A stretch of DNA of 64,000 nt from assembly GCA_046331685.1 (NCBI GenBank), contig JAXLQI010000003.1, positions 102,960 to 166,959 of the forward strand, given 5' to 3'. Shown piece by piece: positions 4,363 to 46,228 of the stretch (position 1 is its first letter; every line of letters begins with the position of its first letter). The position numbers were made by a program, and so were the translations under genes. The notes under the pieces were generated by a model. It saw nothing but the letters and a program-made list of their open reading frames with translations. It was not told where the DNA came from and did not search any database. The stretch comes from Candidatus Micrarchaeia archaeon. Lineage in GTDB: Archaea; Micrarchaeota; Micrarchaeia; Anstonellales; Bilamarchaeaceae.

Positions 4363-4366
4363 AAAA

Positions 4367-13926: not shown

Positions 13927-13930
13927 AAAA

Positions 13931-27598: not shown

Positions 27599-28009
27599 AT
27601 GAAAGTCGATGAAACCGATGAGTCGATCATAGCGGCTCTGAAGAAGGATTCACGGGCGAGCAATGTCAGCATCGGAAAGGCCCTCGGAATCACCGAAGGG
27701 GCTGTCCGCTGGAGGGTGGCCAGGCTGCTGCGGGCAGGCATCATCCGCTCCTTCACGATAGATGTGTCCGAAGGCGCGAACACCTTCGCGATCCTCATGG
27801 TCAAGGCCAGGGGGGAGACCAAGAAGATGATGTCCTCGATATCCTCATTGTCCGTCCACAGGGACGCGTACGAGATCTCAGGCGAATATGATGGCTGCCT
27901 GATAATCGAAGGCCCCTCGGTGGGGGCTATCGACCAGAAGATCGACAGCATACGCAAGCTGAAGGAAGTCGCGGACACCAGGACTTTCATATCTTTCCGC
28001 CGCTGGTGA
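27599..28009 (+). CDS. Lrp/AsnC family transcriptional regulator (second, tandem paralog)
   Basis: HTH region DESIIAALKKDSRASNVSIGKALGITEGAVRWRV plus a RAM-like C-terminus. 136 aa. Confidence 0.8.
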   Translation: MKVDETDESIIAALKKDSRASNVSIGKALGITEGAVRWRVARLLRAGIIRSFTIDVSEGANTFAILMVKARGETKKMMSSISSLSVHRDAYEISGEYDGCLIIEGPSVGAIDQKIDSIRKLKEVADTRTFISFRRW

Positions 28010-28013
28010 GACC

Positions 28014-28850
28014 ATGTGCGCCCAAAGGAGACATTCTGACTCCGCTGCCGAGCCGGTTGTCGTGCCCTTGCCACAGCCCGCGGTCCCCACGCGGGTCGTG
28101 GATACCGTCGGCGGGGTAGCGGAATTCCTCCGCGAGAGGGGGATCACGAAGCCTGGTCCGATGTCGCTGATCGACGCAACGCCGGAGCTCCTCCGCGTGA
28201 GGGCGAATTTCGCCGGGACTCCGGTGGCCGGGACGCTCACGCACCCGCCCCCGATAATCGTCCGGGTGCCGGACGCGACGATCGAGAGGTTCGTAGGGAA
28301 AGGCAATGAGGCCTGCCACATCCCATGGACCAATATCATCCTCGTCTCGGATTCCGCTCTCGCATCTCCCAGGCGCAGCGAGATCCTCGTCCACGAGATC
28401 ACGCACTACGCCGGATTCCGCGGCCATGACGGGAGTTCCGTATACCGCGGTCCGAATGGCCAGACCGCGCTCATGGGGATCCCGGTCTGGATGGAAGAGG
28501 GCCTTGTGAACGCCTTCTCTTCCCGTTCGGCTTCCGGCGTATCAGAGATAAGCTACCCCTACGAAACCCTCGCCGGCATCCTGCTCGAGAAGCTGCATTT
28601 CGATCCGCAGGTCATCAGGCTCGCATACATAACCGGGGATTTCAGGGCGTTCCAGGGCGTGGTGGACAGCCAGCTCGGATCAGGGACATTCGAAGGGATG
28701 CTCCGCTGCCAGAGCGGGGCCGAGGCGTTCTCATTCGTTTATTCTCGCGTCCAGGCCCAGCGTCCGGCTTTCTTCGACGAGAAAGGTTTCCGCGCCGACC
28801 CGGCCGTCCAGCGGGCGCTTTCGATGGTCGGCAACAACCTGCGGCTGTGA
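28014..28850 (+). CDS. Hypothetical protein with an HExxH zinc-metalloprotease-like motif
   Basis: VHEITHYAGF. 278 aa. It starts 5 nt after the second Lrp gene. Confidence 0.45.
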   Translation: MCAQRRHSDSAAEPVVVPLPQPAVPTRVVDTVGGVAEFLRERGITKPGPMSLIDATPELLRVRANFAGTPVAGTLTHPPPIIVRVPDATIERFVGKGNEACHIPWTNIILVSDSALASPRRSEILVHEITHYAGFRGHDGSSVYRGPNGQTALMGIPVWMEEGLVNAFSSRSASGVSEISYPYETLAGILLEKLHFDPQVIRLAYITGDFRAFQGVVDSQLGSGTFEGMLRCQSGAEAFSFVYSRVQAQRPAFFDEKGFRADPAVQRALSMVGNNLRL

Positions 28851-28887
28851 GCGCCTCTTTTTTAATCCGTCCACCCAAATCGTCTTC

Positions 28888-29418
28888 ATGGAACGAAAAG
28901 GCGCACCGCATGATGCCGAGAACGTCCTCGCGTTTCCGGCCCGGGCACCGCCACTCCGCGCACCTGCTGTCGGCGGGCTGTCGAAGATGATCAGCAGAGG
29001 CGTATGCCTCGGCCTTCTTGCCCGTATCGCCCCGATAGACAAGGAGCTGGAGGACATGCTCCGGATGCCTGAGAAGATGTACATGATCGAAAGGAGCGAT
29101 TGCTTCTCTTCCCAGTCGGACCGGGATATCTCAGGAGTGGTCATGCATCTCCAGTTCGGCCTTTCGATGCCCCTGGATTTCGCCGATTACGGCATCGACG
29201 TCAGCGGGAAGGGAAGCTCATCCTTCTGCACGTTCGTGGACCGGTCGAGGAAGGTGATCGTCTCGATGCCCCTGCAGACTCTCTATGGCGGCGAGGCGTC
29301 TTGGGACGACTTCAAGGACGGTTTGCGGCATGCCCTCTCCGCAGCGAAGGCCAAGGAGGGCAGCGGGGAGAGGTTCGACTTCGTTCTCTTCAAGGACAGC
29401 CTCATCAGCACCATCTGA
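28888..29418 (+). CDS. Hypothetical protein
   Basis: 176-aa ORF in the same orientation as the Lrp/HExxH cluster. No motif recognised. Confidence 0.35.
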   Translation: MERKGAPHDAENVLAFPARAPPLRAPAVGGLSKMISRGVCLGLLARIAPIDKELEDMLRMPEKMYMIERSDCFSSQSDRDISGVVMHLQFGLSMPLDFADYGIDVSGKGSSSFCTFVDRSRKVIVSMPLQTLYGGEASWDDFKDGLRHALSAAKAKEGSGERFDFVLFKDSLISTI

Positions 29419-29462
29419 CCCCTCCGGGATAAGGTTATATACCGGACCTGAGAATCGGGTTT

Positions 29463-29957
29463 ATGGCACTGAGGAAAATCCCTGGCGGAAGGGCCACGGC
29501 TGCAGTCTCCGCCGATCCCGATGTCAAAGCGGTCCCGCGTGATTCTGTCGTCGCCCAGCTGCGTGACCTCGCCTCGGGATGGAAGCAGGGCTACGAGAAG
29601 ACGCTCAACATGCCCGGCCAGCTCTACTCTTTCCAGGAAGGGACCCTTCTCGCCTTCTCGTCTGATGAGCGGATGCGCGCGCTCGATTTCCTCCCCTCCA
29701 TGCGATCCGGTGGCGCTCCTCCCGGCGGGATCGACGCTTACGGCCTCATCGTCTATGAGACATCCAGTTCGGCCTACTTCCTCCTCGTGGACACCGGACG
29801 GGGGATATTGGTCAAAGGGCAGATAGCGAGCTTCCATTCCGGCGAGAAGGAGGATTGGGGCCGTTTCATGGGCTCCGTGGAAAAAGCGCTGGGGCTCGCG
29901 AGGCCCGGTAAAATCGCGGTCGTGGATACGGTCCTCGGCATCAGCGAGACGTACTGA
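29463..29957 (+). CDS. Hypothetical protein
   Basis: 164 aa with protein-like composition. Its stop abuts the stop of the convergent 120-aa gene. Confidence 0.4.
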   Translation: MALRKIPGGRATAAVSADPDVKAVPRDSVVAQLRDLASGWKQGYEKTLNMPGQLYSFQEGTLLAFSSDERMRALDFLPSMRSGGAPPGGIDAYGLIVYETSSSAYFLLVDTGRGILVKGQIASFHSGEKEDWGRFMGSVEKALGLARPGKIAVVDTVLGISETY

Positions 29958-30320
29958 TCAGACCGCCTTTTCCATGACCTCGCGGATCACTTTTGCGACA
30001 GGGGACTTCTCATCCGCGTTGTGCAGGCTGATCTTTATAGGCTGTCCGGCCTTGTTCTGGTACGTGACATCGACCCTGAAAGAGTCGGAGTTTATGCTCC
30101 ACACCCTCGTGTCATCGCCTTTCAGGAAAGCCATATGTGAAACGGTATATTTTTTTGAAAGCTCGGCATAGAGCGTCTCAGCCACCCTTTGGGCCAGGCC
30201 CGCCCTCTCCTGCGCGCTGCCTGCCTTGTCGCCGAGGCGGCTCTCCGCCATTATCTTCAGCGACAATGGTTTCGCTTCATGCTCTTTCCCTTGCGCGCCT
30301 TTCCTTCGGAATGTGCTCAT
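29958..30320 (-). CDS. Hypothetical 120-aa protein, last gene of the giant-gene operon
   Basis: It starts 27 nt downstream of the giant ORF stop. A GGTGA Shine-Dalgarno-like element lies 4-8 nt upstream of its ATG. Confidence 0.5.
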   Translation of the reverse strand: MSTFRRKGAQGKEHEAKPLSLKIMAESRLGDKAGSAQERAGLAQRVAETLYAELSKKYTVSHMAFLKGDDTRVWSINSDSFRVDVTYQNKAGQPIKISLHNADEKSPVAKVIREVMEKAV

Positions 30321-30347
30321 AGATTCACCCGCCTCATTGGATATCCC

Positions 30348-33300
30348 CTACGGTTTCCTTAAAGCCCGCTCTTTCAGCAGGAGCATGTAAACGAACGAAT
30401 TGAAAACCGATAATGGATCATGCGTCTCGACATTATAGTAATCCTTCGCCCCTTTGATGAACGACCTCTGGTCGCCGCAGGTTTCGATCATATCCACATC
30501 ATCCCCGGCGACCCCCACGTGGGGCAGGTACTCGTAACCCGGCGCCACCCAGTAATAAGAGATATCGACATTCACCCGCTTGCCGTATTTCACCTCCAGC
30601 AGGGCCTTTGTGAATGGCAGGAGGGTCTTGTAGCCGGTATCGACGAGGACTCCGTCGAAGACCTTCTTCTTCGACGGGTCGGTTATCCCGCTCTTGGCAA
30701 GATAACTGAGCAGTTTTTCGCAATTCGCTTTGAACTGCGGATCCATATGCATCGCGCTCTTGATCTGCAGCCGGAGGCTGTTCATGAAATGCCCGAACAG
30801 GTCGGTCTGCATGCTTGCCACCGTAGCCGTCTTAGGGTCAGCAGAAGCCTTGAATACCGAATAGGCATACTGGTTGGCCTTGAAGACCATATCCGAGATG
30901 TTATGCGCATCGTTCTCGAAGAAATCCTTGCCGAGGGAGGTCCTGGTTATCAGCGCGCCCTTGGGCATCTTATGCCCTTTCCTGCTCGCTATCGTCCCGT
31001 CGACCACCATGAACGCGGCTCCATCCCTCCAGAGGTATACCCTGGACTTGTCCGGATAATGGCTGACGATCGCATCTGTGGACAGGAAGACCCTCTCCAC
31101 CACATGCTCGAGGGGACTCACTCCGAATCCTTCAGTGATGGGTATCTGCTTGTCTATGGCTACGCTCTCGACGCCGAATATCCCGGCGTTCTTGTTGATT
31201 ATGAGCTGGAGCTGGGCCTTCGAGAGCTTCTTGGCCGTGTGTTTCGTCGCGAAATCCATCAGGGCTTTTTCGAGTTCGGCCATCTTCTTGACATCCTTGA
31301 ATGAATGCCCGATCGTGAGCAGGTCCTCGGGTACCGACGATTCCAGATCCGCCCTGAAGCTGTCGATGCTCTTGAACCTGCTTTGGGCCTTGAACTCGCT
31401 CTCGACTAATCTGCTATATGCTACATCCGGCGATTCTTTTTCAACGGGTTTGGGGGCAGGGAGCTTCGGTTTCATCCCTGATCTGCTCAGGCGGAGATGC
31501 TCTGTAGCGATCTCGATGGTCGTCCAATCCGGATGCTGGTCCTTTATTATCAGCATCTCGAAATAATCCGAGCTCACGACCATGAAACCCGTGATCGCTG
31601 CTTTCCCCAGCTTGTCGAATTCCTCGGCGAGCCCCTTCACCCGGGCCGCGTCTTCGATTGCATGCCGCTTTATCTCTAGCTCCCGCTCATAATAGATGAC
31701 CCTCGACTGGCGCAGGGTCTCTTCCTTGACCGCGTTCCCGCCGTGATCGAGCTTTTCGGCGATTTTCTTCACCGCATCGCGATATTCGGGATAGTCCTTG
31801 GTCACTTCCGCCAGGGTGAACCCTGCCTTCAGATTCTCGACGAAATGCTCGAGGGTTCCGGCGATCTTCCCGACCCTATCCTTGGTCATACCGCCGCCGA
31901 CAAGATCCTCAATGCCCTCAAGCATCCTGACCCTCGGGCTTTTCCTCGCAGGTATGCCCACCCTCTCGGATTTGTCGCCGACCGTGATGTCGAATTCGAA
32001 CGCATCGATTTTCTCAGACATACTAGTCATGATCTTCGATTTCCCGGCGAATACCATGCCAGGTGGCAGGACTGTATCAGGCGCCGCAAGCAACTCATCA
32101 GCGTACGCTGAAGGTTCTGTGATCAGTTCTGATTCTTTGACCGCCATAGGGGTCTTGGAGATCTCTTTCGGACCGGCGCTCTTCTCCTTCGGCGGCACGA
32201 CCGGCGTGATCAGATCCTCTTCCGTGACAACCATGGGCGTCTCTGAGATCTCCTTTGGTTTGAAGCCTTTTCCGGTCGCAGCTGGTTCTGGCCCTTCCCC
32301 CCCGGGTGGCGGGGGCAGTGCGGCCGGCTCGGCAATCTTGGGCGCCGGAAGTTTCCCGGTCTTGGCCGCTCCTCCCTTCCCTGCGACAGTCCCTTCGGCC
32401 GGCCCGTATCTCAATTCTTCCCAACGCTCGTTGATGAAGTCGTTCAGGCCGCTGACCGGCCTTTTCTTGCCTAGGTACCAGATGATGTCCAGGTGCAGCT
32501 GCCTGACAAGGTCCCGTGTCCCGGGAATGACCTTCCCAGGCAGGCGTATGACGACGAAATGCTCCTCTTTTTGGGTTTTGGTCGCGTCCTCATTCGCTTC
32601 CTTGGGGCTGACGTCCCCGGTGTGCGTTTTCAGGTACTCGTGAATGGGGATAACCCGATCATAAGCTACCACGACCCCCTCGTTTTTCTGTATCCCTGCC
32701 GGAATCTTGACGTGGATGTCATACTCTCCGATCTCCTTCATGCTTTTCGCTCCAAAAGGCATATCATAGCTCATGACGCCATCAGTGCCTACATGGATTC
32801 CACGGGGGTCGTTTGTGGTGAGCCTGTCGAAATATCTGATGCCCTCTGCCGTCTCGGCATACCCCTGGAAATCGAAAGTCTTTGCAAGGCCTTTTTCCGA
32901 CTTTATCGCGAAAAGCTGATCGTATTCTTCGCCCGAAAGGAGCGGCAGGCCGTTATGCATGCGGCCTTTCCAGCCTCCTGCTTTTACCAATGCTTCTGCC
33001 GGCGTCTCCTCGGGAGCCATCTTCGGGGGTGCCGCAGGCTCGGTTTTTTCGAATCCCGTTGGAATGGGTGCTTTCTTTGCCAGCTCTTCCACGGACGCTG
33101 ATTCAGGCACCGGAACAGGAGGCGCTTTCTTGGCCGGAGCGGTCTTCTCCACCACCTCTTCGGGGGGAGGAGCGGGTTTCTTCGCCAGCGGCGTCTTGGC
33201 CTCTTCAGCTGGAACGGGCGGCTCTACAGCGAGCGCCTTTTTCTTCCCTAATGCAGGGGTGGCCTCAGGCTGCTTCTTCGGCGGTTTGGCCGTGAACTCC

Positions 33301-36300
33301 TCGGCGCCTGCGGCAAGGGGCAGTCCGGCCGGAGTCGCCACCTTCTTCGCCATAACCGGCGTCTTATCCTCTTCGGTGCCGATCGGTGTTTTCGCCGTTT
33401 CTTTTATCCTGCGCTCGACGGCGCCCTTCAGCCCCTCGACGTATTCAGCCTGGTCACGGCGTGCTGCATCCATCAGCGCCAGTATCTCGTCGCCGTAGAG
33501 ATGGACCCGTCCATCGACCCTCTCGACGGTCCGGACCCTGCCCCCGTGGATGAACAGGGAGCCCACTTTCGGGGCATTCGGGCTTGTCGTGTCGAAGCCG
33601 AGCCCGAAGGGCTTCCCTTCGTGGGCTTCGACGATCGGTTTCACAGGGCTCTTCAGGTCGGACGGGGCGAGCTTGTCGGCTTTGAGGTCCAGCCCGGCTT
33701 TCTCTCCTAGCAGCTCTGCCATCATGGCTTTCGCGGCCGGGACCTCACCTTGGAACAGGTCCTTCCCGTTCCCCATCTTGATGGACGCCGCCTTGTCGAG
33801 CGCAGAGGCCATGTCGATGAGCATGCCGCTCGTTGCATCAGCGAAATCCCTGTTGAAGTCGGTGAAATCCGGTTTCCCTTCCTTGGATCCGATCCTGGCC
33901 CCTATGCCGTCCATGTCTATCGGCTGGAACGTCAGCTCTACCTCGCCGCTTGCGCGCCGCACCAGCATCACTGTGGTGTTCCGGTCGAAACGGTCCATCA
34001 GCAGGATCCTTCTCGAAAGCTCGTGATACGTGTTCCAGGCCTTGAATATCTTCTCCCTGCCCTCTTTCGTCTGGGCTAGCTTGTAGAACATCGCCGCTGC
34101 GGCGTTGTCGGCGTCAGGCTTCTTCAGGACCTCATCCCTGAACATGGCAACCCCCAGGACTGTCACGTTCTCCGTCTTCCCGTCCGATGGCAGGCTCGCC
34201 ATGACCTTCTTGCCTTCGTAGGCTTTCACCAGGGATCCGTCCGGCAAGGTTATCGTGGTTTCGGAGTGCCCTGTTTTCGGGGATGCCAGGTCATGTATGT
34301 CCAGCGATATCCCGTAGTCCTGCATCAGCGGTTTTCCGTCGACCATCAACCCTGTGTCGTATGCATACCCGTGCAGGGTCTCGGGCGGGACGAGGCCTTT
34401 GGAAGCTGCCAGTTCCTCCCCGAATTTGACCGGGAGCATATCCTCGGGCTTCACGAATATGCTCCGCCCGTCCGACATCTTCACCTTGAAGATGCCCCTC
34501 AACCCGCTCAGGGGCTCGACGCTGCTTATCTTCTTGCCGCCGAATCCCGGGATCGCCGCGATCCTCGCAGGCAATCCGCCCCTCACGATCAGATCCAGGA
34601 ATACCTTGACCTTGGAGTCATATTCGAATGTCTCGCTCTCGAGCCGTATCCTGTGGGGCCCGACCTTGTCCGCCAATTCGGCTTTTTTCGGGTCCCCGTC
34701 CGCCATCCCCGCGACCTGGCCCTCCGTGTGCTCGACCCATCTCTTCAGCTCGATGATGCCGTCCCGGTCTTTCCTGAAAGACGAGATGTCGATCCCGAAA
34801 GCGTCAAGGACATTCAGCCTTCCTTCCGATCCGCCCTCACCGTAGATCTCTTTCATCAGGGCCGGGTCCTGGCCGTTCTTCTTTGTATAGGCGGCGATCG
34901 CTCCGAATTCCTCCCCGGGAGGCAGGGCGGCCTTAGCCTCATCGATTTTTTTCAGGTGCCCCAGCTCTTTCGCGCCCCTGAACCATTCCATCGCCATGCG
35001 AAGCTTCATCATGGGATTGTTTTCCAGGATCATGTGGTCCAGCTTCCAGGCCAGGTACGGATCGGTCGCCCTTATGCTGTCGATGATGAACTTTCCTGAG
35101 GGTTTTGTGAATATGCTACCGCTGAATTCGGCTAGGCCCTCGGCCGTCCCCCCTGCTAGGAGGTGCGAATACGCTTTTCCTATGGACGTGCTGACGCTCT
35201 CTCCAGGCGCAGCTTTGAGCAGGAAATCCGCGATGACGGCCCGGGTGACCGGGTCGGCAGATTCGAAGACGTTTTTCACCAGGCCGTTCTTCCTGATGGC
35301 TTCGACCGAGGACGATCTCGGATCGCCGGTCTTGGCCCATTCTGCGAGCCTGGCCTCGGCTTCGCTCATCGATATGTCGCCGCGCATCCTGAGCGAGCCC
35401 TCGGCCACCTTGAGGAGGTCTGTGAGCTTCGGGCTTCCGCTTTCTATCTCGAGCCTCGCCGCCGCGATCCCGTCGCTGTCCACCCCCTCTATGTTCTTCT
35501 TGTATTCCGAGATCTTCTCCATGGCCGGCGGGGGTTCCTTCGGTTTCGGGACAGCCTTGGACGAGATGCCCTCCGCCTCTGTCCAGGATGCAGGGTCAGT
35601 CCTGCCCTCGAGCTTCTTCGCGGCTTTCCGCAGGGCCACTATGTCGGACTCCACGGCATCCGCTTCGGCATGCTTGCCTTCAGCGCGGAGTATCGACGCT
35701 TGGTCGGTGAGCTTGTTCGATCTCTCGAATAGCATCTCCGAAGGCGTCTTAGGTTTGGCAGACGGGACGGGTTCGGGGTATTTCGCGGCAGGGCTAGGCT
35801 CCTTCATCGGCGCCGGTTCGATCGGTTTCGCGGTGCCAGGTTCCACACCGCCTGGTTTGATCCCGCTTTTGAGCGTCGGTTCTATTGCCACAGGTGCTGC
35901 GACCGGGGCGGTTTCCATCCCAGGTATGGTCGCGGCCATCTCCATCCTGATGCTGTCCCAGGTCTTCGCTGCGAACCCTCCCGGGTCCTCCGAGTTTGTC
36001 TTGTAGAGCTCTTTGAACACCGTGGCAGCATCGGCGGTCAGGATCGTCCTGCCGTCCGTGTCCATCGGCACGTTCTTCTTCCCGTTGATGAAATTCTTCC
36101 CTTCGATCCTGAACATCTCATCGACATCGTGGAGCTCTGCCGCGGCCTCGGCCGGGGCTTCCTCTCCCTTCAGGAACGCCTCCCTCCTTTTAGCGAGGGC
36201 TGCCTTCTGCCCCATGGTGAGCTTTGCGTTGAGGCCTATGCCTATCGGGGTCCCGGCATTGGAAGTGAGGGCCTTCTCCACCCCGTCAACGAATCCAGGT

Positions 36301-39300
36301 GATTTTCCTATCTCCTCATGCCAGGCTTTCGCGCCTTCCTTGATGCTCGAAAAGGATTCTGTGAAAAGCGTCTTATACGTCTTACCGGACGGCCCAAGGT
36401 CGGTCAGCTGCATCTGGAGCAGCACATCCATCGTGCCCCTCAATTCGGTCCCGTACGATTCGTGGAGTTCCCCGAAATCCAGCTTCCCCCCGCTTTCTTT
36501 GGCCAGGAACGCCGCGCCGGAATCCGTGTCTATCCTGCCGAACCTGAGGACCATCGCCCCCTTCTCATCGGATACCACCAGGTGCCCGAGTTTCTCCAGG
36601 TGGGCGGCATCCTCTTTGGAGACCCTTCTGGTCATCGCCCATATGTTCCCGTGGTGGCCGTCTGAGAAGCCGACGCTCATGAGGCCGGTCTGGGTGTATC
36701 CGTACTCCTTCATGACCAGTTTCCAGAACAGCTCGGGATTCTCGGCCCTCATCTTCTTCAGGGCAGGATTCGCTTCGACGAACTTGGAGAACTGCTCGAT
36801 CGCCATGGCCGACTCGGTCTTCTCGTGGATGATCTTCCCGCCGGCCTTGGCGTCGCCCTCATGGTATCCCATGTGCTGCATGATCCCGAATCTGGCCCTG
36901 CGCCCTCGGTCGAACAAAGACAGCTCTTTGCCGCCGTGGCCGGTTATCACTTCCGGGGCCGCGATCCCCGCATGTTTTTCCGCAAGCGTCGAGCCCAGCT
37001 TTTCTGCCGAGAGATCCTGCGCCTTCGCTATGAACGCGACTTTCTCCTTCCCCGGCGTCTCGACTGTGATCTCGAAGGCTCCCTGGGCGGCGAATATGAA
37101 CCTGACTTTCTTGACCTTGCTTCCTGCCGGGATCTTCTGGTTCGCGAAAGTTATCTCGCCTTTTCCTATCATGGAGGCGAGATCGCTGGTCAGCAGCCCG
37201 ATGGCTCGCGTCGTCGCGCTTCCTGCCTCCAGCTCTATCCCGGCGCCATGAAGCGCGTCGCTGATTTTGTTTGTAAGCTCCCAGACGTCCTCATTCTCCA
37301 GCGCTGCCTTTTCGATTTTGGCCTTGAGCTCCGGAGCCTTTGACGGTTCAGGAGCTAGCTTGGACAATGCTTCGGAGTTCGCGATGGCACTGAGACGTAG
37401 ACCGATATCATATTTCCCTTTCTTCTCAAGAGCGTCAAGGGCCTTTGCCAGGTTCTCAGGCTTCCCGATCCCTTTCTTCAGGAGGGCTCCGGCGAGGTAA
37501 TCCTCATCTGCCGGTTCCCGTCCCTCGCTCTCGGCTCGTCCTTTCGCGAACTCGGATGCCGCGATATCCACCGGATTCTTCGAAGCTTTGAGTTTGAGGC
37601 TTATCGCCTCTTTTGTCATCTCCCCGATTAATTCGAATGCGGCTTTCTCCAATGGCGCTCCCTGTTTCGCCGCTTCCTCTTTGATGGCCGCTGTGAACTG
37701 TTCATCAAGTTCCGTCGCAGGCGGTTTGTTCCCTTTCGCCATCTCTGCATACGCCTTGGCGGCAGCCTTCTGGCCTTCCACTGCCTTAGCGGCGGTTTCG
37801 GGGCTTACACCTTCGCCCACAAGCTTTTCGATCGCATTCTTCCCGACCTCGTCGAGCGCTTTCTCTCCTGTCGATAAGACCGGTTTCGCTTCGATAGTCT
37901 GTTTCACCGGCTCTATCTTCGGCCCGCCTGACTTCACATCCCTTGCCGCTTCCATCCCGAGCTCGTAGGAAAGATCAGCAGGCGAAAGTTCGGAAGCCTT
38001 GATGACTTTGAAGAATTCCGCCTTGCCTGAGAATTCGGGCGGGACCTTCCCGCTCTTCGAATACTCATTGTAGGCATCGGTGAGCGATTTCGTCCTTGCT
38101 TCGGTTTCGGAAGGTGCGATTTTTTCCACCGCTTCAGGCTTTGGCGCTTCCGCAACTGCTGCCTCGGGTTTGGTCACCCCACCGGCTTTCTTCTTCGCGA
38201 GCGCTTCTTTGAGCTTCGACAGCGCCTCCCCCTTCACGAATGTCTTCGCAGGGGATTTCGCCTCGCTGAAAGCCGCCTCCGGGGACTTCCCCTTCGAACG
38301 CGCTTCGGTGTATCTGATGACGAAGTCAGGTGATGGGGCGGTCGCCTCCTTGAAAGCCTCGGCCGGCCCCTTTCCTTCGTTGCGGGCTGACGAATAAAGG
38401 AGGTGAGGCATCTCGCCTGCGGTCATCATCTTGCTCAGGTGGCCTGCCTCCAGGTCGAGCATCAGCTTCTTGCTCTCGGGAGGGAGACCCTCTGCCGCTT
38501 TGCTCATCTCCGAGATCCCAGCCCTGACCTCGATGGGGTTCTTGCCGGACATTACCTTGGCGTAGGATTCACCGGCGCCGCCCATGCTCTTGCGGAACCC
38601 TGCCAGTTCCTTTGCAGCCGCGTGCTCCTCCACGGACATGAACTCGCTCCGGAATCCGAACAGGATCTGCGTGAACTGCGAAGCGCGGGAGCTGTATTTC
38701 GGCACCCCTCCCTCATGGACCGAGAGGGCCATCCTCTTCGACACGCGCGCCTGCGCCCAAGGAAGAAGGACGGAGGTCGAGGCCCCGCTCATTCCGGTGA
38801 AGACAAGCCCCTGCCAGCCCATCTCGCCTTTCTTGTAAGCATCGTAGATCTTGGGCGCCTGGAATACCAGGAATTCGCCGGCCCCTCCGTAGAACATCGA
38901 TTTCTCAAGTCCCCACGTTGCGCCTTTGTAAGCGTAATACCCAGCTTTGGCTAACCCGCCCGCGGGGGCTTCCGCCGCGGCAAGGAAAGTCAGCCCCTTC
39001 AGCGCTGCTATCCGGTGCCCAATCGGCACGACCGCCCCGACAGCGCTCAGGCCCGCCCTGATATATAATTCGGTGCTCCATTTCCCTGATCTCTCGGCCT
39101 CCTCATAGGCTTCGGCCACGCCCTTGACGCCGGTGACGACGAAATACGCCCCTCCGGTCGCAGCTCCGAGGATCATATCGCCTGCGAACGTCCCTGCAGC
39201 CTTCCCGAAAGCGTAGCGGGCGCCGATGTCGCCCATTTCGCTCTTCAGTCCCTTGGTCTTCGCGTCAGAATCGGATATCTCTCCCTTGTCGGTGAAAGAG

Positions 39301-42300
39301 ACCATCCCGCTGGACTTGAGCGTCGCATCCGATCCGCTGATGTCGCCAGCGATCGCGAGGTCTCCGGCTTTCTTGGACAGAATCATCCTCCCGAGGACGA
39401 CGGCCACGAACTCCTTCTCGGTCTGGACGCCGGTCCCTGCCACCGATGGGGTCTTGGTCCCGAAGCCGATAGATATGTCGTATCCTTCCACGGTCGGAAC
39501 AAGGACATTATCAAGCAGCATATCGAAGTTCTGGGCCGCCTTCATCAGCCTCTCCCTCTGGTCCGGGGAGAGCCTCTCCAGCGATTCGAATCTCAGGCCG
39601 TCGACCGTCTCCTTGGCGTCCAGGCCCACCCTCCAGAAGAAGATATGGCCCGCATCTTTCCCCGCCTTCTCTATGTCTTCCTTGTTGCCCTCCTTGGCAT
39701 CTCCGAACATGTAGGATGAAGTGAGCAGCATCTCGGACCTGCTTACCGACATCACTTCCTTGCCGAAGTTGATTTTCCTCGGGACGCGCCTTCCATGCTC
39801 GTCCACAGCTGAATAGACGGATATGTAAGTGCTTTTCTGGGGGCCGGTCTTGAAGTCGCCGGTGGTGTGCTCGTAAACGGTCGCCGTGACCTCTTTGTTG
39901 GTCTTGAGGGCAGTGAGGAATGTCTCGTCGTTGTCCAGGGCGGTCATCGCATCCTCAAGGCAGATCGCGCTCATCTCCCTCGCGGCTGTCGATGTGTCGT
40001 ATTCGAGCTTGAAATACGGGAGCTTCATCCCGGTCCTCTTCTCATACTCCTTCGCGATCTCTGCGAAATCCTCGGCCTTCTCCAGCCTTCCGAACTCAGA
40101 AAGATCGCCTTTGAGCATGAACCGCTTGCCCTTCTCTATGAACGCTTTTGCGAACTCCCTTGCGGCCGTCCTCTCCTTCTCCTTCCCCACCGTTTCACGG
40201 TATTTCTTGTCTGCCGCTTCCAGGACCGGAGGATTCTTCTCTCCTGCGAGGATCGAGTCCACAGCCTTATGGTTGGCGCTTGCGGTTCCCTCCCAATCCT
40301 TCTCGCTCCGCTCGTAGCTGGCGCCGAGCTTGTCGAGCGGGGATTTCAGGGCCTTGTTCCTCTCATCCCTCAACTTCACGGCATCGTCTTTCTCTACGAC
40401 CCCATACGGGGCCTTTTCCAGGAACGCGCCATCCACGCCCGCCTTTTCATCACGGGCCTTCCACTTGTTGAAATCAGATGTGGCGGCTTTGATCCCGTAT
40501 CCCTCGGCCATCTTGGCCTTGAACATGTCAGATTCGAGCGTCCTGAATCCTTTCCTCGCTCCGATCACATCTCCTGCCTCAGCGGCATCGCTGAGGGCCA
40601 TGAGCCTCTTGCCATAGAACGATGTATTGAAGTATGGGAGCCTGCCTTTCTCGACGACGTCCTTGATGGAGCCTTTCTCATACGCTCCGGCCCCGGGCAC
40701 CGGGATGGATTCCAGCATCAGCCTCGAAAGGAGCTTCTCCCTCGCTCCGAGCCCGTCCTTGCCCGGAGGGATCATCGCGAGCTCTTTCTCATATCTGTAC
40801 CTGCTGTTCGGGTCAGGTATCAGTCCGACCAGCACTCCGAGCTCAGGGTTCCCGATCGTCCCACGGTCTCCTCCTGCGAAGAACTTGATCCCGTTGTCGG
40901 CATAGCCCTTCTTTATATCGTACTCGTCCAGGTGCATCTTCGCCCCCTGGAACCTGATATCGAAATTCGTGTGGACCTTCGCCGAATATGTCTCGGCATC
41001 CGCGAACCGCTCGGACCAGTTGAGCGAGATGACGGTGGAATGCTTGGTCTTGTAGCCGTTGAGGTCGAGCCATTTCTCCCCGCGCTCGTCCGTGGTCTTG
41101 ACGCCCTGCGATCCGGTGAGGTCCTCATACAGCTTCTGCAGTTTTGCCGGATCGTCGCCTGCGGCCGCAAGGCGGTCGCCTTTGCCGTGGTATGAGACGA
41201 GGTCGTTGTAGAGCGCTTTCAGCTTCCCCTGGTCTTCGCCCGCTTCTGCGTACCTCTCTGAGAAGACCTCCTTCATGGGCTTCTGCCCTTCCCTGAGGTA
41301 AGTCTCTTTCGGGAAGTTCGCGATCATATCCCTGACCAGGAGCTTTGTAAGGACGCTCTGGACCCTGCCTATGTCCTTCTTGAAGGCCTCCTGCTCGAGC
41401 CATATCGCTCCGTCACGCTGTTTCTTTATCTTCTCCTCACGGGAGACCAGCTCGCTGCCCGCTGCGTTCAAGCCTATGCCCCGCTCGACAAGCTTCTTCT
41501 TCCTCTCGGCGGTCAGCGGCACCGGCTTCGAGTCCGCCCCGATGAGCTTCTCGCCTTTCTCATCGGCATCATGGCCTTCGCCGATCGCGAGGAACGTCTT
41601 CGCGGCAGCGTCGAGCTCGGCCCTCCCGCTCTTCTTGTTTATGGTGTCTATCCTGGTGACGCTCTTGTGGAGCTTGGCGAGAGAATCGGCCGCCGCGTCC
41701 GCGCTCAATCTCTTATCATTTCCGCTCGCTATGAGCGATGTTATTTCTTGGTCTAAGAGTGACTTGTATAAGGCGTTCCGAAGCTCGTCGGCCTCCTTCG
41801 CCTTGCCCTCTTTCCCGAGCGAATCCGCTTTCTTGAGAGCGAGATCGACCTTCTCCTTCATCTCCGGCGGAAGCCCGCTCGAGAGTTCGTCGGTCCTCTT
41901 CCTCACGAACGCCGGCCCGGCGTCATCCGCCGCTTCGTACTCCTCTTCAAGGTCGACCGACATCAGCAACTCGGATGTCCCTTTTTCGCGGAGGGCCGCT
42001 GCCCTGCCGACCGAGCTTGTCATGGACACGAAGTCCGAGCCTTCCGAAGCATATTTCTTCTTCATCGCCTCGCGGTCCTTCTCGGCCCCTAGTATCGCGA
42101 TCCCTTTCGAGTCGCCGGCAGCTTTTTCCTGGAGGAACGAATCCCGGGTCAATTCGTGCCCCAGCTTGACCGCTGATTTAATCCCGGCTGCTTCGACAGC
42201 GTCTTCCAGCTCTGCCTTCGTCGGTTCCCTTCCGAGCTCTTTCTTCAGGCTCGCCTCGGTCTCCGCCCTCTTCTCCTTCCCGAGGGCTTCAGTCACCGAT

Positions 42301-45300
42301 CCTCCTGCGAGTATGGCTTTCGCGAGCGGCGCGTCTATGGCGCCTTCGGGCGGCTTCCAGCCTTTCGGTCCGATATCGAGGATCCTTTTGCCTCCAAGGG
42401 TATTGTTGGCAGAATATTCCCCGAGGTATCTCTCTGCGCGGACCATCCTTTTCGTGCGTTCTGAAGCTCCTTCAGGGCTCAGCTTGCCTTCATCCATGGC
42501 CGCGTCCTTGGCGTACATCGCCGCCATGTCGAATATTATCTTGGCCTCCTTCTTCAGCCCGGAGCCCGCGGTCCTGATCGCAAGGTCGAAATACGCCTGG
42601 GCATTCGTCTTCATCGCCGGATTCGTTATCTTCGCCTCCAGCTCGGTCCTCTCCTTGTAGATGGATAAGACGAGCAGGTCCGGATCGTTGAAGACAGGGA
42701 TGCCTGGCAGCTTGGAGTTGGCCTCTCCCACCCTCGCTATCGCCAGCACCCTTTCCCGGTCTTCTTTCTTCACGCTGAGATATATCTCGGCGATGTTCTG
42801 GAATATCATCCCGTTCTCCAGGTCCCCGGACATGATCCTCCGCGCAGAGCTCCCCAGCATCTCCAGGACCGCTTCCTTCTGGTCCTTGGGCGCGGCAGGA
42901 TTGAGCATCTCGCTATACGACTTGACGAGTTTCTCCATCGCCTTGACGCGTGATAACTCTTCCCTTGCCGCAAGATCAGCGATCGTCAGCTTCTTCTCCT
43001 TGAGGTACTTCTCGACCGCGCCCTTGAACTCCGGGTCCTCTGCCATCTGCTTCTTTATCTTCGCTTCAGAGGCCGCGATATCCTCCTTCGATATGCGGTC
43101 TTCGCCCTTGACAAGGCGGTCCTTCTCCTTCTTCAATTCACCGATCAGCCAGCCGAGCTCAGCTTTCCCGGGAGCCTTCTCGCCCATCGATTTATGGGCC
43201 TTGGTCAGCTTGATCAGGTTCCCTTCCAGTATGAGATAGCCCCGGGCGATGACCTCGGCAAGCTCGGGCTTCTTCGATATCACGGCGATGACCTGCTTGA
43301 TCTCATTCTTCTGCTCTGGAGTGCCTTTGGAGAATCGCAGAGCGAGCACCGCGATTGAGTTCATCGCCCCTTTATCCCAGTCCTTCAGGTATCCTTCCAT
43401 CCCCTTATCGAATATCGCTGCCGTCTCGCTGAGAGCCGGCTCTTTGATGCCGGACAGTATGTCCTTCCTGACCTTCCCGACGAAACCCAGGATCGTCATG
43501 CCCTTCTCTATCGCCTCTTTCGTCGCCTTGCCCGGTGCCTCAAGAGGCTTGAGCGCCGCTTCTATCCCATCTTTGATCTCCTTGGGCAAGGTCTTATCGA
43601 GAAGGATCTTTTTCAGTCCGGAGACTATCTCGGCGGCGAGTTTCAGTTCATCCGCCGCAGGAGCTTTGGCTTCAACCGCTGCGGGTTTGGGGGCAGTGGG
43701 TTTGACGGCCGGTTCTTTTGGTTTTGCGACCGGTCCTGTAGGGACTACAGTGGGGGGAGTAACCGCCGGCCCTTTGGGCACTGCAGCCGGAGCCTTTGGA
43801 GCCTCAGGAGCAGCCTTCTTCTCCTCGGGCGCAGGAGCGAGCTTGAATCCAGGCCCTTTTGAAGGGGGCTGCATCTTCGGCAATGGAGTGTGGTACGGTT
43901 TCCCTTCCTCCAGCTTGTCCGCTTTCTTCTCGCGCTCCTCCTTGCCCTTCCCTGCGTTCCTGAACGACTCGGCGAGCGCCTTTACCCTCGGGTCGTTCCT
44001 GTCCTTTATCCCGAGGGCCCGCATGGCGGCTTCTTCGACGCTGAACCCCCTCCCCACCAGCCACTCCATGTTGCGGAGGTTCATCCCATCTTCGAGATTG
44101 GAAGACATCTTCTCAAGGGCGCCGGCGACCTCCTTGTCCCCGCCTTTCTCCGCGTATTTCTTCCCCAGCTCGTACTGCTTCACGGCGGTATCCATCCCGC
44201 CGCCGCGGAGCACGCAGTCCAGGGCGCGTCCGAAGATCTTCATCGCGCCGTCCTTTATCTCCTTGGCTTTGCCGGCGAGCTTGCCTTCCGAGTCGAATAT
44301 CTTGCCGACAAGCTCCGAGGCGAACGTCATCTTCTCTAGCTCGGCGATCGTGGCTGGCGGTTTGTCCTTGAACATCTTCGCGATCGCTTCGGCTTTCGCT
44401 TTCAGTATGCTGTCTTTGAACCCGGCAGCGGCTTCGGCGGCTTTCTTCTGGTATTCCGCCCCGACAGCCGAGACCGCCTGCGCCACGGTCTTTTTCCTCT
44501 CGGAGAGGTCCTTGCTTATCTCATCGAGCTTTTTCCGCAGCTCCCCTTTGGCCTCGCTGTGCCTGGCGAGGATCGTCTGCTGGAGCTTCGCTGTCTCGAT
44601 GAGGCTCTTGACCGCCTCGGCGCGCTTCTCCTTCGTCGCGCCGGCCTTGCCGAATGAATCTATCAGGCCTTTGACCCGAGGGTCGTTCTTGTCCTTTATG
44701 CCGAGGACCCTCATCGCGGCTTCTTCCGCGCTGAGGCGCTTCGCCGGATCGGTGTTGCTGACATGCCTCTCCATGGCGGCTATGTTGTGCGCCAGGCTCA
44801 GGGCGGCTAGGCCGCGGGCGAAGACCGCGACGCTTTCCCTGGCCTCCTCGCCGGTCTTGTCCTTCAGGATCTTGAGGGCGTTCTTGACGTAGTCTATCTT
44901 CTCTTTCGTCTCCTCCTTATCCTCTTTCCCTGTCTCCTCCTTCTTTTTCTTCTCTTCCTCGAGCTTCTTCTCCAGCGCTTCCAGGTCGTCCTTGAGCTTG
45001 CCTAGCTGCTCCTTCGCGGATTCCTGCATCGCGCTCATCATGAGGGCGCTCACCATCCCCTGGAAGGCGAGCACGGTCGCGGTCTCCGGGCTTCCGCCGC
45101 TTATGGCCGATTCGACAGCGCTGGTCTGCCGGTTAATGCCGTCCATCCGTCCGGCATGGGCCTCCACATGGGCATTTGCCTCGTCGGTGTTGCCGAGGGG
45201 GTGGCTCGACATGGTGAGGACTTCCTTCTCCACCCTGGCTGCCAGAGTCGGATCTGCGCTGAGGGCCTCAGGATGGTCGGCGATGTGCTCGACCGCGTTC

Positions 45301-45812: not shown

Positions 45813-45817
45813 ATGCT

Positions 45818-46153
45818 TCACTCGGGCCGGATGCCCTCCGCTATCCTGACCAGATCCCGGAGCCTTTGGATGCGGGTCTCGAAAGTATCCGTGAACTTTG
45901 GCTTGCTGGCCTCCCACCCCTTCAGGGCGTCCAGGGCTTTCTGGTACCTCTCGAAATTCTTCGCGAGCTCCGGGGGCTTCCCGCCGGATGCTTTCCATGC
46001 CGCGAGCGCCTCCTCGAGCTGGGCGATCATCTTCTTCACCCGTTCGCGGGTCTCGGCTTCGACCTGGCCGATCGTGGATTCGTTTATCTTGGGGTTGAGG
46101 GCTTCGGCGACCAGCGAATTCTCGTATCTCTCCAATTCCTCTGGACTTGCCAT
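45818..46153 (-). CDS. Hypothetical 111-aa helical protein, first gene of the giant-gene operon
   Basis: MASPEELERYENSL... with charged, helical composition. Its stop lies 5 nt before the giant-gene ATG. Confidence 0.5.
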   Translation of the reverse strand: MASPEELERYENSLVAEALNPKINESTIGQVEAETRERVKKMIAQLEEALAAWKASGGKPPELAKNFERYQKALDALKGWEASKPKFTDTFETRIQRLRDLVRIAEGIRPE

Positions 46154-46159
46154 GTTAAA

Positions 46160-46210: not shown

Positions 46211-46228
46211 TTCCGGAGCCGCGGAATG

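What the first reader, a model, noticed from the sequence alone, without database searches (positions are those of the whole stretch)
30351..33400. C-terminal third of the giant protein: globular modules separated by four PEVK-like Pro/Ala/Lys-rich linkers, including a tandem 21-aa repeat
The four Pro-rich spacers are at approximately 43646-43901, about 36.0 kb, 32969-33389 and 32066-32369. They read APEAPKAPAAVPKGP..., PVAAPVAIEPTLKSGIKPGGVEPGTAKPIEPAP..., KPPKKQPEATPALGKKKALAVEPPVPAEEAKTP... and PAPKIAEPAALPPPPGGEGPEPAATG.... They separate compact segments. One linker carries the tandem repeat KPKEISETPMVVTEEDLITP / GPKEISKTPMAVKESELITEP at 32111-32261. The final roughly 320 aa (30351-31315) form a distinct globular domain ending DGVLVDTGYKTLLPFTKALLEVKYGKRVNVDISYYWVAPGYEYLPHVG. 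This beads-on-a-string layout is typical of extended fibre or tether proteins.
Basis: seen in the sequence. Interest (0 to 1): 0.5.

Follow-up and report, generated by a model that had tools for sequence, protein, structure and literature searches.

The report
Modular giant enzyme protein, DPANN archaeon
The tail of a 5,200-residue protein from a tiny symbiotic-type archaeon (Micrarchaeota) is a string of separate folded modules joined by floppy proline-rich spacers. The last module looks like a phosphoribosyl-transferring enzyme that always travels with a small partner gene, so the protein is more likely a multi-enzyme effector than a passive fibre.

Summary
The observation largely holds. ORF 30348-45998 (-) encodes a 5,216-aa protein (5,154 aa from Met63). 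It has four long Pro/Ala/Lys/Glu-rich low-complexity segments at the stated places, plus two short ones. The "tandem 21-aa repeat" is two copies spaced 29 aa apart. The terminal domain is about 357 aa and runs to the true C-terminus.

The host is a Micrarchaeota (DPANN) archaeon. The gene lies in an 18-kb stretch that is missing from the syntenic region of its nearest available relative.

Exhaustive HMMER shows the tail is built from independent modules:
- Bead A belongs to a family that otherwise occurs as stand-alone ~250-aa proteins.
- Bead B is an orphan.
- Bead C ends other 6,500-7,300-aa giants and also occurs in shorter proteins.

Bead C is followed by a 118-137-aa same-strand gene in 5 of 5 loci. 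That gene follows 0 of 4 related giants that lack bead C.

Upstream are two modules with a kinase-type K...DRxxxN...IDxD signature. Nothing matches Pfam, NCBIfam, PHROGs or PADLOC. I found no signal peptide, membrane anchor or adhesin repeats.

Beads-on-a-string is supported. A fibre or tether role is not.

The parts
30348..45998 (-). Giant gene: 5,216-codon ORF. The likely real start is Met63 at 45812, giving 5,154 aa, identical to GenBank MFN7991375.1 (hypothetical protein, Candidatus Micrarchaeia MAG).
43629..43901 (-). Linker L1 (aa 700-790): 25% Pro, 22% Ala, 15% Lys. Outside the finding's interval.
38559..39131 (-). Gly/Ala-rich, moderately hydrophobic region (aa ~2290-2480) with GxxxG-type runs. 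Conserved in related giants and in P0002. It did not reach the hydrophobicity I took as typical of a transmembrane helix. Possible membrane-interacting segment (inference only).
35949..37211 (-). Module K1 (aa 2930-3350): kinase-like signature AFIAK ... DGHHGN ... RIDTD, followed by a G-x-P-x-G-x-G / NG...DGR tail.
35724..35915 (-). Linker L2 (aa 3362-3425): 23% Pro.
33399..35507 (-). Module K2 with its conserved N-terminal extension (aa ~3498-4200; kinase-like core aa 3780-4200): IFVKP ... DRFDRN ... PIDMDG. This is the most widely conserved module of the family (30-46% identity to about 20 other giants).
32967..33392 (-). Linker L3 (aa 4203-4344): 20% Pro, 19% Ala, 15% Lys, 13% Glu. A Pro-rich segment follows K2 in several relatives as well.
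32364..32966 (-). Bead A (aa 4345-4545): member of an uncharacterised domain family (motifs GLPLL, TFDFQGY, GIHVGxDG, EYxxYxxxP). It is otherwise found in about 45 mostly stand-alone proteins, typically 220-270 aa.
32091..32363 (-). Linker L4 (aa 4546-4636). It contains two copies of a 20-21-aa unit at 32202-32261 and 32112-32174 (13/20 identical, period 29 aa).
31479..32090 (-). Bead B (aa 4637-4840): no homologue among 1.84 billion representative proteins. The only signal is a sub-threshold Pfam NNMT/PNMT/TEMT match (23.7 bits against a cut-off of 25, covering only the C-terminal part of the profile).
31419..31478 (-). Short linker L5 (aa 4841-4860, GMKPKLPAPKPVEKESPDVA). pLDDT is below 50 here in the otherwise confident bead C model.
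30351..31427 (-). Bead C (aa 4858-5216): phosphoribosyltransferase-fold domain closest to PRPP-dependent glycan ribofuranosyltransferases. Conserved motifs are RVYLWRDG and V(D/E)TGYKT. The same domain ends P0004, P0005 and P0007 (6,498-7,279 aa) and occurs in proteins of 300-2,051 aa.
29958..30320 (-). S3: 120-aa gene 27 bp downstream of the giant gene on the same strand. A gene of 118-137 aa occupies this position after every bead C gene examined (5 of 5). It is absent after 4 of 4 related giants that lack bead C.
29463..29957 (+). S1: 164-aa convergent gene. Homologues lie next to related giant genes in L005 (two copies), L006/L007 and L009.
28888..29418 (+). S2: 176-aa convergent gene, distantly related to S1. 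Homologues lie next to related giants in L005, L009, L016 and L017.
28014..28850 (+). 278-aa gene with an HEITH (HExxH) motif. It is homologous to an internal module (aa 1178-1400) of a related giant, P0010.

Best explanation
The finding is the C-terminal fifth of a real 5,154-5,216-aa protein of a Micrarchaeota (DPANN) archaeon. The protein belongs to an undescribed family of modular giant proteins.

Shown:
- The tail consists of three independently evolving modules (bead A, bead B, bead C) separated by low-complexity Pro/Ala/Lys/Glu spacers.
- The spacers coincide with the module boundaries found by homology.
- Module content and order differ between family members.

Shown by fold prediction: bead C has a phosphoribosyltransferase-type alpha/beta core with helical-bundle additions, as in the CriT ribofuranosyltransferase of Bcs3.

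Inferred:
- Bead C binds PRPP through its invariant R-D (RVYLWRDG) and D/E-T-G (VDTGYKT) loops and transfers ribose-5-phosphate to an acceptor that remains unknown.
- The 120-aa protein encoded immediately downstream is its dedicated partner, acting as an inhibitor/immunity factor or an adaptor.
- The two upstream K modules are phosphotransferases of the protein-kinase-like type.
- The linkers act as flexible spacers that let several catalytic modules work side by side. They may also serve as recombination-tolerant joints for module exchange.
- Overall, the protein most likely works as a multi-enzyme effector used in cell-cell interaction with a host or competitor, not as a load-bearing fibre.
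For: Gene and organism:
- The ORF is intact.
- Neighbouring genes are archaeal housekeeping genes. An intron-sized tRNA match is nearby.
- The adjacent aspartate kinase is 69% identical to that of Ca. Bilamarchaeum sp..

Island: positions 28010-46228 are absent from the otherwise collinear Bilamarchaeum locus.

Linkers: composition and repeat statistics are. Pro-rich segments occur in most relatives.

Module independence:
- Exhaustive HMMER maps separate families onto aa 4017-4336, 4338-4530 and 4858-5214, and nothing onto bead B.
- Module order is permuted in P0004, P0005, P0020, P0031 and P0048.
- In L005 the corresponding region is split into two adjacent genes, and the second has a different C-terminal ~1,000 aa.
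- The neighbouring 278-aa gene is an internal module of P0010.

Bead C fold:
- AlphaFold2 with 14 sequences gave pLDDT 82 and pTM 0.81.
- The CriT catalytic domain is PRTase-like and uses R679/D680 and E818 (PMC10299916).
- Bead C has an invariant R-D just after the RVYLW strand, and a near-invariant Asp (Glu in one of 14 sequences) ending the GVLV strand, followed by TGYKT and a helix.

Partner gene: present in 5 of 5 bead C loci and 0 of 4 loci without bead C. The window protein and its L009 counterpart match at E 5e-14.

K modules: across 32 modules, Lys is 94% conserved, D and N five residues apart are 100% conserved, and I-D-x-D is 91-100% conserved. The family consensus reads DRHxRN.

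Accessory genes: S1/S2 genes flank the giants in six independent loci.

Composition: GC3 drops across the C-terminal cassette and S3 (0.63-0.74) relative to the K modules (0.78-0.79) and housekeeping genes (0.80-0.84).
Against: - No enzymatic activity, localisation or secretion has been shown.
- No signal peptide or secretion/trafficking domain was recognised, so delivery outside the cell is pure inference.
- The canonical vicinal acidic pair of type I PRTases is absent.
- The nearest structural relatives are biosynthetic capsule enzymes, not toxins or effectors.
- The kinase assignment is motif-only. Profiles of 5 and 22 modules hit no kinase in PDB sequences, and no member hits a Pfam kinase family.
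- S3 relatives beyond L009 are recognisable only by position, size and a weak match (E 0.008 for L011).
- Disorder of L3 and L4 was not confirmed by a valid structure or disorder predictor.
Confidence: 0.5

Rival explanations
1. Structural fibre or tether. The folded beads are passive spacers or binding knobs, and the Pro-rich segments are entropic springs. Together they form a long filament that attaches the small archaeon to a host cell.
For: - The protein is very long, with several Pro/Ala/Lys-rich extended segments and long helical K/E/A-rich stretches in the N-terminal two thirds.
- DPANN archaea do have giant surface proteins thought to mediate host contact (PMC10266531).
- Micrarchaeota are mostly host-associated.
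Against: - No signal peptide or transmembrane anchor.
- No Ig, FN3 or other adhesin repeats.
- Apart from one 80-aa duplication and the two 20-aa units, there are no internal repeats. Fibres are usually built from repeats.
- Catalytic-type residues are invariant in bead C and the K modules, which a passive spacer would not need.
- Bead C has a dedicated partner gene.
Confidence: 0.12
2. Housekeeping cytoplasmic multi-enzyme machine, analogous to Bcs3. The CriT-like bead C adds ribofuranose-5-phosphate to a cell-envelope glycopolymer, the kinase-like modules phosphorylate sugars or lipids, and the linkers tether cooperating active sites.
For: - The closest structures to bead C are capsule and polysaccharide ribofuranosyltransferases that are themselves parts of multi-enzyme chains.
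- No secretion signal was found.
- Stand-alone bead A homologues sit among housekeeping genes such as KsgA and YbeY.
- Island GC equals that of the flanks.
Against: - The gene is absent from the syntenic locus of the nearest relative, and module content is highly variable between genomes. That is unusual for core envelope synthesis.
- No partner HAD phosphatase (the CrpP equivalent), glycosyltransferase or export genes were recognised in the protein or the island.
- Arrays of fast-diverging small paralogous genes lie next to the giants.
- Many relatives are nearly lysine-free.
Confidence: 0.2
3. Cargo of a mobile element or integrated virus. The 18-kb island is foreign DNA, and the giant protein is a viral or plasmid structural or entry protein.
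For: The island is an 18.2-kb insertion relative to the Bilamarchaeum locus. All of its genes lack database annotation.
Against: - Island GC is identical to that of both flanks (0.588).
- No integrase, capsid or terminase matched in Pfam, and nothing matched PHROGs.
- No relatives were found on 2.9 million viral contigs using bead C patterns.
- No tRNA gene lies at the island edges.
- Related giants sit among housekeeping genes in other genomes.
Confidence: 0.05

Closest known systems
CriT domain of Bcs3 (Haemophilus influenzae type b capsule polymerase, PDB 8a0c/8a0m) and the Thermobacillus composti polysaccharide ribofuranosyltransferase (PDB 7shg)
   Same: - They share a PRTase-like parallel-sheet core decorated with helical bundles.
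- An Arg-Asp pair follows a core strand, and a second acidic residue ends another strand (CriT R679/D680 and E818, PMC10299916; bead C R4991/D4992 and D5120).
- In both cases the domain is one module of a long multi-enzyme chain.
   Different: - Sequence identity is only 10-12%, with no sequence-level match.
- No adjacent HAD phosphatase, TagF-like transferase or SH3b domain.
- The organism is an archaeon, and the domain sits at the end of a 5,000-aa protein.
- Bead C is paired with a small downstream gene that the bacterial enzymes are not reported to have.
- Donor and acceptor are untested.
Type I phosphoribosyltransferases (HGXPRT, APRT, OPRT, PRPP synthetase)
   Different: - The vicinal acidic pair of the PRPP motif is missing.
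- About 200 extra helical residues are present.
- No Pfam or NCBIfam PRTase model matches.
Bacterial polymorphic toxin systems (Zhang et al. 2012, PMC3482391)
   Same: - Large multidomain proteins in which a conserved body carries alternative C-terminal enzymatic domains.
- The C-terminal domain also exists as shorter stand-alone versions.
- A small, fast-diverging gene lies immediately downstream on the same strand.
- Arrays of small paralogous genes lie nearby.
- The locus is variable between close relatives.
   Different: - No recognisable secretion or trafficking domain, pre-toxin domain or releasing peptidase.
- Toxicity and immunity are untested.
- The small paralogue arrays are convergent rather than co-directional.
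- The host is a DPANN archaeon.
- The terminal domain's relatives are biosynthetic enzymes.
Giant surface proteins of Nanohaloarchaeota ('SPEARE' proteins; PMC10266531)
   Same: These are also DPANN archaeal proteins of 5,000-9,400 aa. They are strain-variable and are thought to act in the interaction with a host.
   Different: The nanohaloarchaeal proteins have a Sec signal peptide, Ig-like/fibronectin-like tandem domains, a membrane anchor and a VirB4/TraG-like ATPase. None of these was detected here, and no sequence similarity to such proteins was found.
Ala/Pro-rich interdomain linkers of multi-enzyme proteins (for example the E2 chains of 2-oxo-acid dehydrogenases) and the TonB Pro-rich spacer; titin PEVK
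   Same: All are low-complexity, Pro-rich, charged, hydrophobic-poor segments between folded domains. This comparison rests on established knowledge, not on a test made here.
   Different: Titin PEVK consists of about 28-residue repeats dominated by P, E, V and K (from my own knowledge). Here P+E+V+K is 51-56%, Ala is 11-22%, and there is no such repeat. At 64-142 aa, these linkers are longer than the E2 linkers as I recall them.

Membership tests
Titin-type PEVK segment | Composition dominated by Pro, Glu, Val and Lys | tested here: not met
   P+E+V+K is 0.51-0.56 in L1-L4, with Ala at 0.11-0.22. The segments are Pro-rich and charged, but not PEVK-dominated.
Titin-type PEVK segment | Tandem ~28-residue PEVK repeats | tested here: not met
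   Only two copies of a 20-21-aa unit, in L4. No tandem array at the DNA level or by self-BLAST.
Giant archaeal surface/adhesin proteins (SPEARE-like) | N-terminal signal peptide and membrane anchor | tested here: not met
   The N-terminus, read from either start, is polar. The highest 19-aa Kyte-Doolittle mean is 1.46. No dedicated signal-peptide predictor was available.
Giant archaeal surface/adhesin proteins (SPEARE-like) | Tandem Ig-like/fibronectin-like or other adhesin domains; VirB4-like ATPase | tested here: not met
   No Pfam family reached significance over the whole protein. No internal repeats beyond one 80-aa pair.
CriT-like PRPP-dependent glycan phosphoribosyltransferase | PRTase-like alpha/beta catalytic core flanked or interrupted by helical bundles | tested here: met
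   [not shown]
CriT-like PRPP-dependent glycan phosphoribosyltransferase | Conserved Arg-Asp and second acidic residue that position PRPP (CriT R679/D680, E818) | tested here: inconclusive
   Invariant R174/D175 and near-invariant D303 (alignment A3 numbering) sit at the C-terminal ends of core strands. Residue-level superposition on CriT was not available.
CriT-like PRPP-dependent glycan phosphoribosyltransferase | Partner HAD phosphatase that removes the 5-phosphate | tested here: not met
   No HAD or other phosphatase family matched in the giant protein or the island genes.
CriT-like PRPP-dependent glycan phosphoribosyltransferase | PRPP-dependent ribofuranosyl-5-phosphate transfer activity | not testable with these tools
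   Needs biochemistry.
Type I phosphoribosyltransferase | PRPP-binding motif: hydrophobic strand, two adjacent acidic residues, then the TGxT loop | tested here: inconclusive
   The strand GVLV, then D, then TGYKT and a helix are present. There is only one acidic residue, and no PRTase HMM matches.
Polymorphic toxin system | Conserved N-terminal/central body with alternative C-terminal domains | tested here: met
   K2-bearing relatives end in bead C (P0004, P0005, P0007), in an unrelated ~1,000-aa region with an HEFQH motif (P0019), or in a weak PIN match (P0010).
Polymorphic toxin system | Cognate immunity gene immediately downstream of the toxin domain | tested here: inconclusive
   A 118-137-aa same-strand gene follows bead C in 5 of 5 loci and 0 of 4 loci without it. 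An immunity function has not been tested.
Polymorphic toxin system | N-terminal secretion/trafficking domain and releasing peptidase or pre-toxin domain | tested here: not met
   None recognised by Pfam, NCBIfam or PADLOC.
Protein-kinase-like / PI3-PI4-kinase-like fold (K modules) | Catalytic signature: strand Lys, D-x-x-x-x-N catalytic loop, metal-binding Asp motif | tested here: met
   Across 32 modules: K 94%, D and N five residues apart 100%, I-D-x-D 91-100%. The consensus is DRHxRN, and one module reads DRHELN.
Protein-kinase-like / PI3-PI4-kinase-like fold (K modules) | Detectable homology or fold match to known kinases | tested here: not met
   Profile searches against PDB sequences found nothing. 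No Pfam kinase family matched any of 22 modules.

The most novel reading that the evidence does not exclude
This may be an archaeal (DPANN) counterpart of polymorphic toxin/effector systems. In this reading, a family of 3,000-7,300-aa proteins carries exchangeable C-terminal enzymatic cassettes. One cassette is a PRPP-dependent phosphoribosyltransferase 'warhead' (bead C) that modifies a target in a host or rival cell and is neutralised in the producer by the ~120-aa protein encoded just downstream. The near-absence of lysine in many family members would then be an adaptation to escape lysine-directed attack in the target cell, such as ubiquitin-like tagging or proteolysis.
Probability: 0.2. 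Interest if true: 0.8.

Novelty: new variant of a known kind. Interest (0 to 1): 0.55.

Why it matters
DPANN archaea depend on other cells, yet the molecules they use on their partners are almost unknown outside the nanohaloarchaeal giant surface proteins.

This locus defines a second, unrelated family of giant DPANN proteins. Its modules are absent from Pfam, NCBIfam, PHROGs and PADLOC, but three of them can now be tested:
- a phosphoribosyltransferase-fold terminal domain with a dedicated partner gene;
- two kinase-motif modules;
- a domain that otherwise exists as a conserved stand-alone protein next to rRNA-maturation genes.

If bead C uses PRPP on a macromolecular target, it would extend PRPP-dependent glycosyl transfer beyond bacterial capsule synthesis. 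It would also give a concrete handle on symbiont-host biochemistry in Micrarchaeota.

If the protein turns out to be a cytoplasmic envelope-synthesis machine, it is still a new multi-enzyme architecture. The linker observation on its own is ordinary.

Tried and rejected
Searches that failed or gave nothing:
A 4,987-aa version timed out.
- The word-index search with aa 4345-5216 found nothing. The search with the 5-sequence K-module profile also found nothing. Only the exhaustive HMMER search was informative.
- A GTDB genome scan with aa 3790-5216 found no relatives.
- JGI metagenome and IMG/VR scans with bead C patterns found none. Alignments A3 and A2 were too divergent for pattern scans.
- An exact look-up of a neighbouring protein found nothing.

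Structure work that was wasted or unavailable:
- Single-sequence AlphaFold of aa 4345-5216 gave mean pLDDT 34.6.
- The AFDB Foldseek library was unavailable.

Annotation libraries:
- Pfam, NCBIfam, PHROGs and PADLOC gave no significant hit for any module or island gene.
- Weak hits were judged noise or unproven: NNMT/PNMT/TEMT on bead B, apolipoprotein and DUF families on the N-terminal third, Cas7b on S1, and spore protein H on S3.
- PDB sequence and profile searches for the tail, K modules, bead A and bead C gave only chance-level hits.

Ideas considered and rejected:
- A membrane anchor in the Gly/Ala-rich region (hydropathy too low).
- A viral or mobile origin (composition and the absence of hallmark genes).
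- A tandem-repeat array in L4 (only two copies).

Full report
**1. What is in the sequence**

The window carries one uninterrupted ORF at 30348-45998 on the minus strand, 5,216 codons long. An identical protein of 5,154 aa exists in GenBank as MFN7991375.1, "hypothetical protein, Candidatus Micrarchaeia archaeon". It starts at Met63 of the ORF, coordinate 45812. The first 62 codons are Arg/Pro/Gly-rich and are probably not translated.

The protein is rich in Ala (12%), Lys (11%), Glu (10%) and Gly (9%), and almost free of Cys.

**2. The linkers**

Four long Pro-rich segments stand out:

| Linker | Residues | Coordinates |
|---|---|---|
| L1 | aa 700-790 | 43629-43901 |
| L2 | aa 3362-3425 | 35724-35915 |
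| L3 | aa 4203-4344 | 32967-33392 |
| L4 | aa 4546-4636 | 32091-32363 |

There are also two short ones: aa 3478-3492 and L5 (aa 4841-4860). The long linkers hold 19-25% Pro against 5% overall, and half as many bulky hydrophobic residues as the rest of the protein. A simple TOP-IDP scale picks out the same places.

P+E+V+K reaches only 51-56%, and Ala is as common as Lys. "PEVK-like" is therefore only a loose description.

The reported repeat in L4 is two copies of a 20-21-aa unit, 29 residues apart, with 13 identical positions. None of 500 shuffles of the linker exceeded 10. It is real, but it is not an array.

The interval given (30351-33400) is the last fifth of the protein, and L1 and L2 lie outside it.

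**3. Organism and locus**

The neighbours are archaeal housekeeping genes: aspartate kinase, AMP phosphorylase, ribose-1,5-bisphosphate isomerase family, and ribosomal proteins L10 and L1. A 125-nt Rfam tRNA match, long enough to contain an intron, and a free-standing 5S rRNA are also present.

The adjacent aspartate kinase finds Ca. Bilamarchaeum sp. at 69% identity and two other Micrarchaeota genomes at 58-60%.

In the Bilamarchaeum contig, gene order is conserved on both sides. However, everything from about 28010 to 46228 is missing there. That stretch holds the giant gene, a 120-aa gene behind it, and three convergent genes. The island has the same G+C as its flanks (0.588). Third-position G+C falls over the C-terminal cassette.

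**4. Relatives**

The word-index search found nothing for the last 872 aa. For aa 2950-4200 it found only two Micrarchaeota proteins.

The exhaustive HMMER search with aa 4017-5216 found 82 proteins, and these fall into separate groups:

- The K2 tail (aa 4017-4336) matches about 20 other giants of 3,000-7,300 aa.
- Bead A (aa ~4338-4530) matches about 45 proteins, mostly stand-alone and typically 220-270 aa.
- Bead C (aa 4858-5214) matches the extreme C-termini of three giants (6,498-7,279 aa) and a dozen proteins of 300-2,051 aa.
- Bead B (aa 4637-4840) matches nothing.

The edges of these matches coincide with the linkers.

BLAST of the whole protein against the large relatives shows shared N-terminal helical regions and K1 and K2 modules. 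In several relatives K2 precedes K1, the reverse of the order here.

In contig JBFLVW010000081 the corresponding region is two adjacent genes. The second has a K2 module followed by an unrelated ~1,000-aa tail with an HEFQH motif.

The 278-aa HEITH gene next to the window's giant is an internal module of another giant, P0010.

Pro-rich segments between modules recur in most relatives.

The beads-on-a-string picture is therefore correct, and the beads are evolutionarily mobile units.

**5. The terminal domain (bead C)**

None of the curated libraries recognises bead C, and PDB sequence profiles give nothing.

AlphaFold2 with the 14-sequence alignment A3 gave a confident model, with pLDDT 82 and pTM 0.81. 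Only the first 34 residues (which include L5) and two loops fall below pLDDT 50.

Foldseek gives the same top two hits, but weakly.

The Bcs3 paper describes CriT as a PRTase-like core with three helical bundles. It uses PRPP to add ribofuranose-5-phosphate to the growing polymer, with R679/D680 and E818 holding the substrate (PMC10299916).

Bead C has an invariant Arg-Asp just after the RVYLW strand. It also has a near-invariant Asp (Glu in one member) ending the GVLV strand, followed by TGYKT and a helix. This is the geometry of the PPi and PRPP loops of phosphoribosyltransferases.

I infer that bead C binds PRPP. The acceptor is unknown.

**6. The partner gene**

A 120-aa gene (29958-30320) lies 27 bp behind the giant gene on the same strand. 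A gene of 118-137 aa occupies the same position after bead C genes in four other contigs.

One of these is clearly homologous (E 5e-14) and one weakly so (E 0.008). The others share size and predicted pattern only.

The four related giants examined that lack bead C have no such gene. Bead C and this small protein therefore form a cassette.

Two further small-protein families are convergent with the giant gene here: S1 (29463-29957) and S2 (28888-29418). They recur, often in several copies, beside related giants in five other loci.

**7. The K modules**

An alignment of 32 modules from 17 proteins shows the following conserved positions:

- a Lys, 94% conserved (IFVKP / AFIAK);
- an Asp and an Asn five residues apart, 100% conserved (DRFDRN here in K2, DGHHGN in K1, DRHELN in one relative; consensus DRHxRN);
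- I-D-x-D, 91-100% conserved.

This is the catalytic signature of protein-kinase-like phosphotransferases, with the PI3/PI4-kinase spacing. That reading comes from my own knowledge of those families.

**8. What it most likely is**

The protein lacks a signal peptide, a hydrophobic anchor, adhesin repeats and repeat-built shafts. At least three of its modules carry invariant catalytic-type residues.

Several features resemble effector or polymorphic-toxin logic (PMC3482391) more than a fibre:

- lineage-specific presence of the gene;
- module shuffling between family members;
- alternative C-termini;
- the cassette of bead C with a fast-diverging downstream gene;
- arrays of small paralogous genes nearby.

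The defining delivery domains were not found, however, and nothing shows toxicity.

The main rival is a cytoplasmic multi-enzyme machine for an envelope polymer, as the Bcs3 analogy suggests. I give the effector-type multi-enzyme reading about 0.5, the envelope machine 0.2, the fibre 0.12, and a mobile-element cargo 0.05.

**9. Limits**

Disorder of L3 and L4 therefore rests on composition and domain boundaries only.
- Bead A and bead B have no fold assignment.
- The bead C model comes from 14 sequences.
- The residue-level match to CriT was not superposed.

Noticed in passing
Related proteins P0004, P0005, P0007, P0009, P0010, P0031, P0032, P0048, P0086 (not in the window): Many giants of this family are almost lysine-free (0.1-0.4% Lys and 8-13% Arg over 2,000-7,300 aa). 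The window protein has 10.6% Lys. In one MAG (GCA_040758235), the lysine-free P0009 and the lysine-normal P0001 and P0019 are consecutive by locus tag, so the bias is specific to the protein rather than genome-wide.
   Followed up: partly
L008 8001-8777; L013 4001-4810; L015 879-1658: Stand-alone bead A homologues sit in a conserved order, nitroreductase - DUF357 - bead A homologue - KsgA/Dim1 rRNA dimethyltransferase, in two Micrarchaeota genomes. In a third contig the homologue lies next to YbeY. This hints at a housekeeping, possibly ribosome-related, role for the free-standing form.
   Followed up: partly
window 28010-46228: An 18.2-kb stretch is absent from the otherwise collinear locus of Ca. 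Bilamarchaeum sp. (L001). It holds the giant gene, S3, S1, S2 and the HEITH gene. Its G+C is the same as the flanks, no tRNA gene lies at its edges, and no integrase was found.
   Followed up: yes
window 28014-28850 (+): A 278-aa protein with an HExxH motif (HEITH) has no library match. It is homologous to aa 1178-1400 inside the related giant P0010 (E 2e-10). The second L005 gene has an HEFQH motif in its divergent tail.
   Followed up: partly
window 43854-44081 and 44544-44786 (aa 640-715 and 405-485): This is the only sizeable internal duplication in the giant protein: an ~80-aa segment (...EEAAMRxLGIKDxNDPRVKxL...) at 42% identity.
   Followed up: no
window 38559-39131 (aa ~2290-2480): A Gly/Ala-rich, moderately hydrophobic stretch with GxxxG-type runs is conserved in P0002, P0004 and P0005. 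It falls below the hydrophobicity I took as typical of a transmembrane helix. It could be a membrane-inserting or oligomerising segment.
   Followed up: no
window 30351-33392 compared with 33399-37211: Third-position G+C is lower in the C-terminal cassette and S3 (0.63-0.74) than in the K modules (0.78-0.79) and neighbouring housekeeping genes (0.80-0.84). This is compatible with a different history for the tail.
   Followed up: partly
window 31479-32090 (bead B): A sub-threshold Pfam match to NNMT/PNMT/TEMT methyltransferases (E 3e-5, 23.7 bits against a cut-off of 25) covers only profile positions 159-233.
   Followed up: no
L010 5682-5996; L017 5376-5687; L006 9223-9534: A ~103-aa gene sits immediately upstream of the giant gene in three related loci. 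The L010 and L017 copies are homologous (E 7e-21). The window has no such gene between the aspartate kinase and the giant gene.
   Followed up: partly
window 22870-22994 (-), 880-994 (+), 13930-13995 (-): An Rfam tRNA match 125 nt long (intron-sized) that ARAGORN did not report, a free-standing 5S rRNA, and a 66-nt tRNA-Asp.
   Followed up: no
window 27112-27567 and 27599-28009 (+): Two adjacent small paralogous genes, which look like Lrp/AsnC-type regulators by eye only, form the left border of the island. They are conserved in L001.
   Followed up: no
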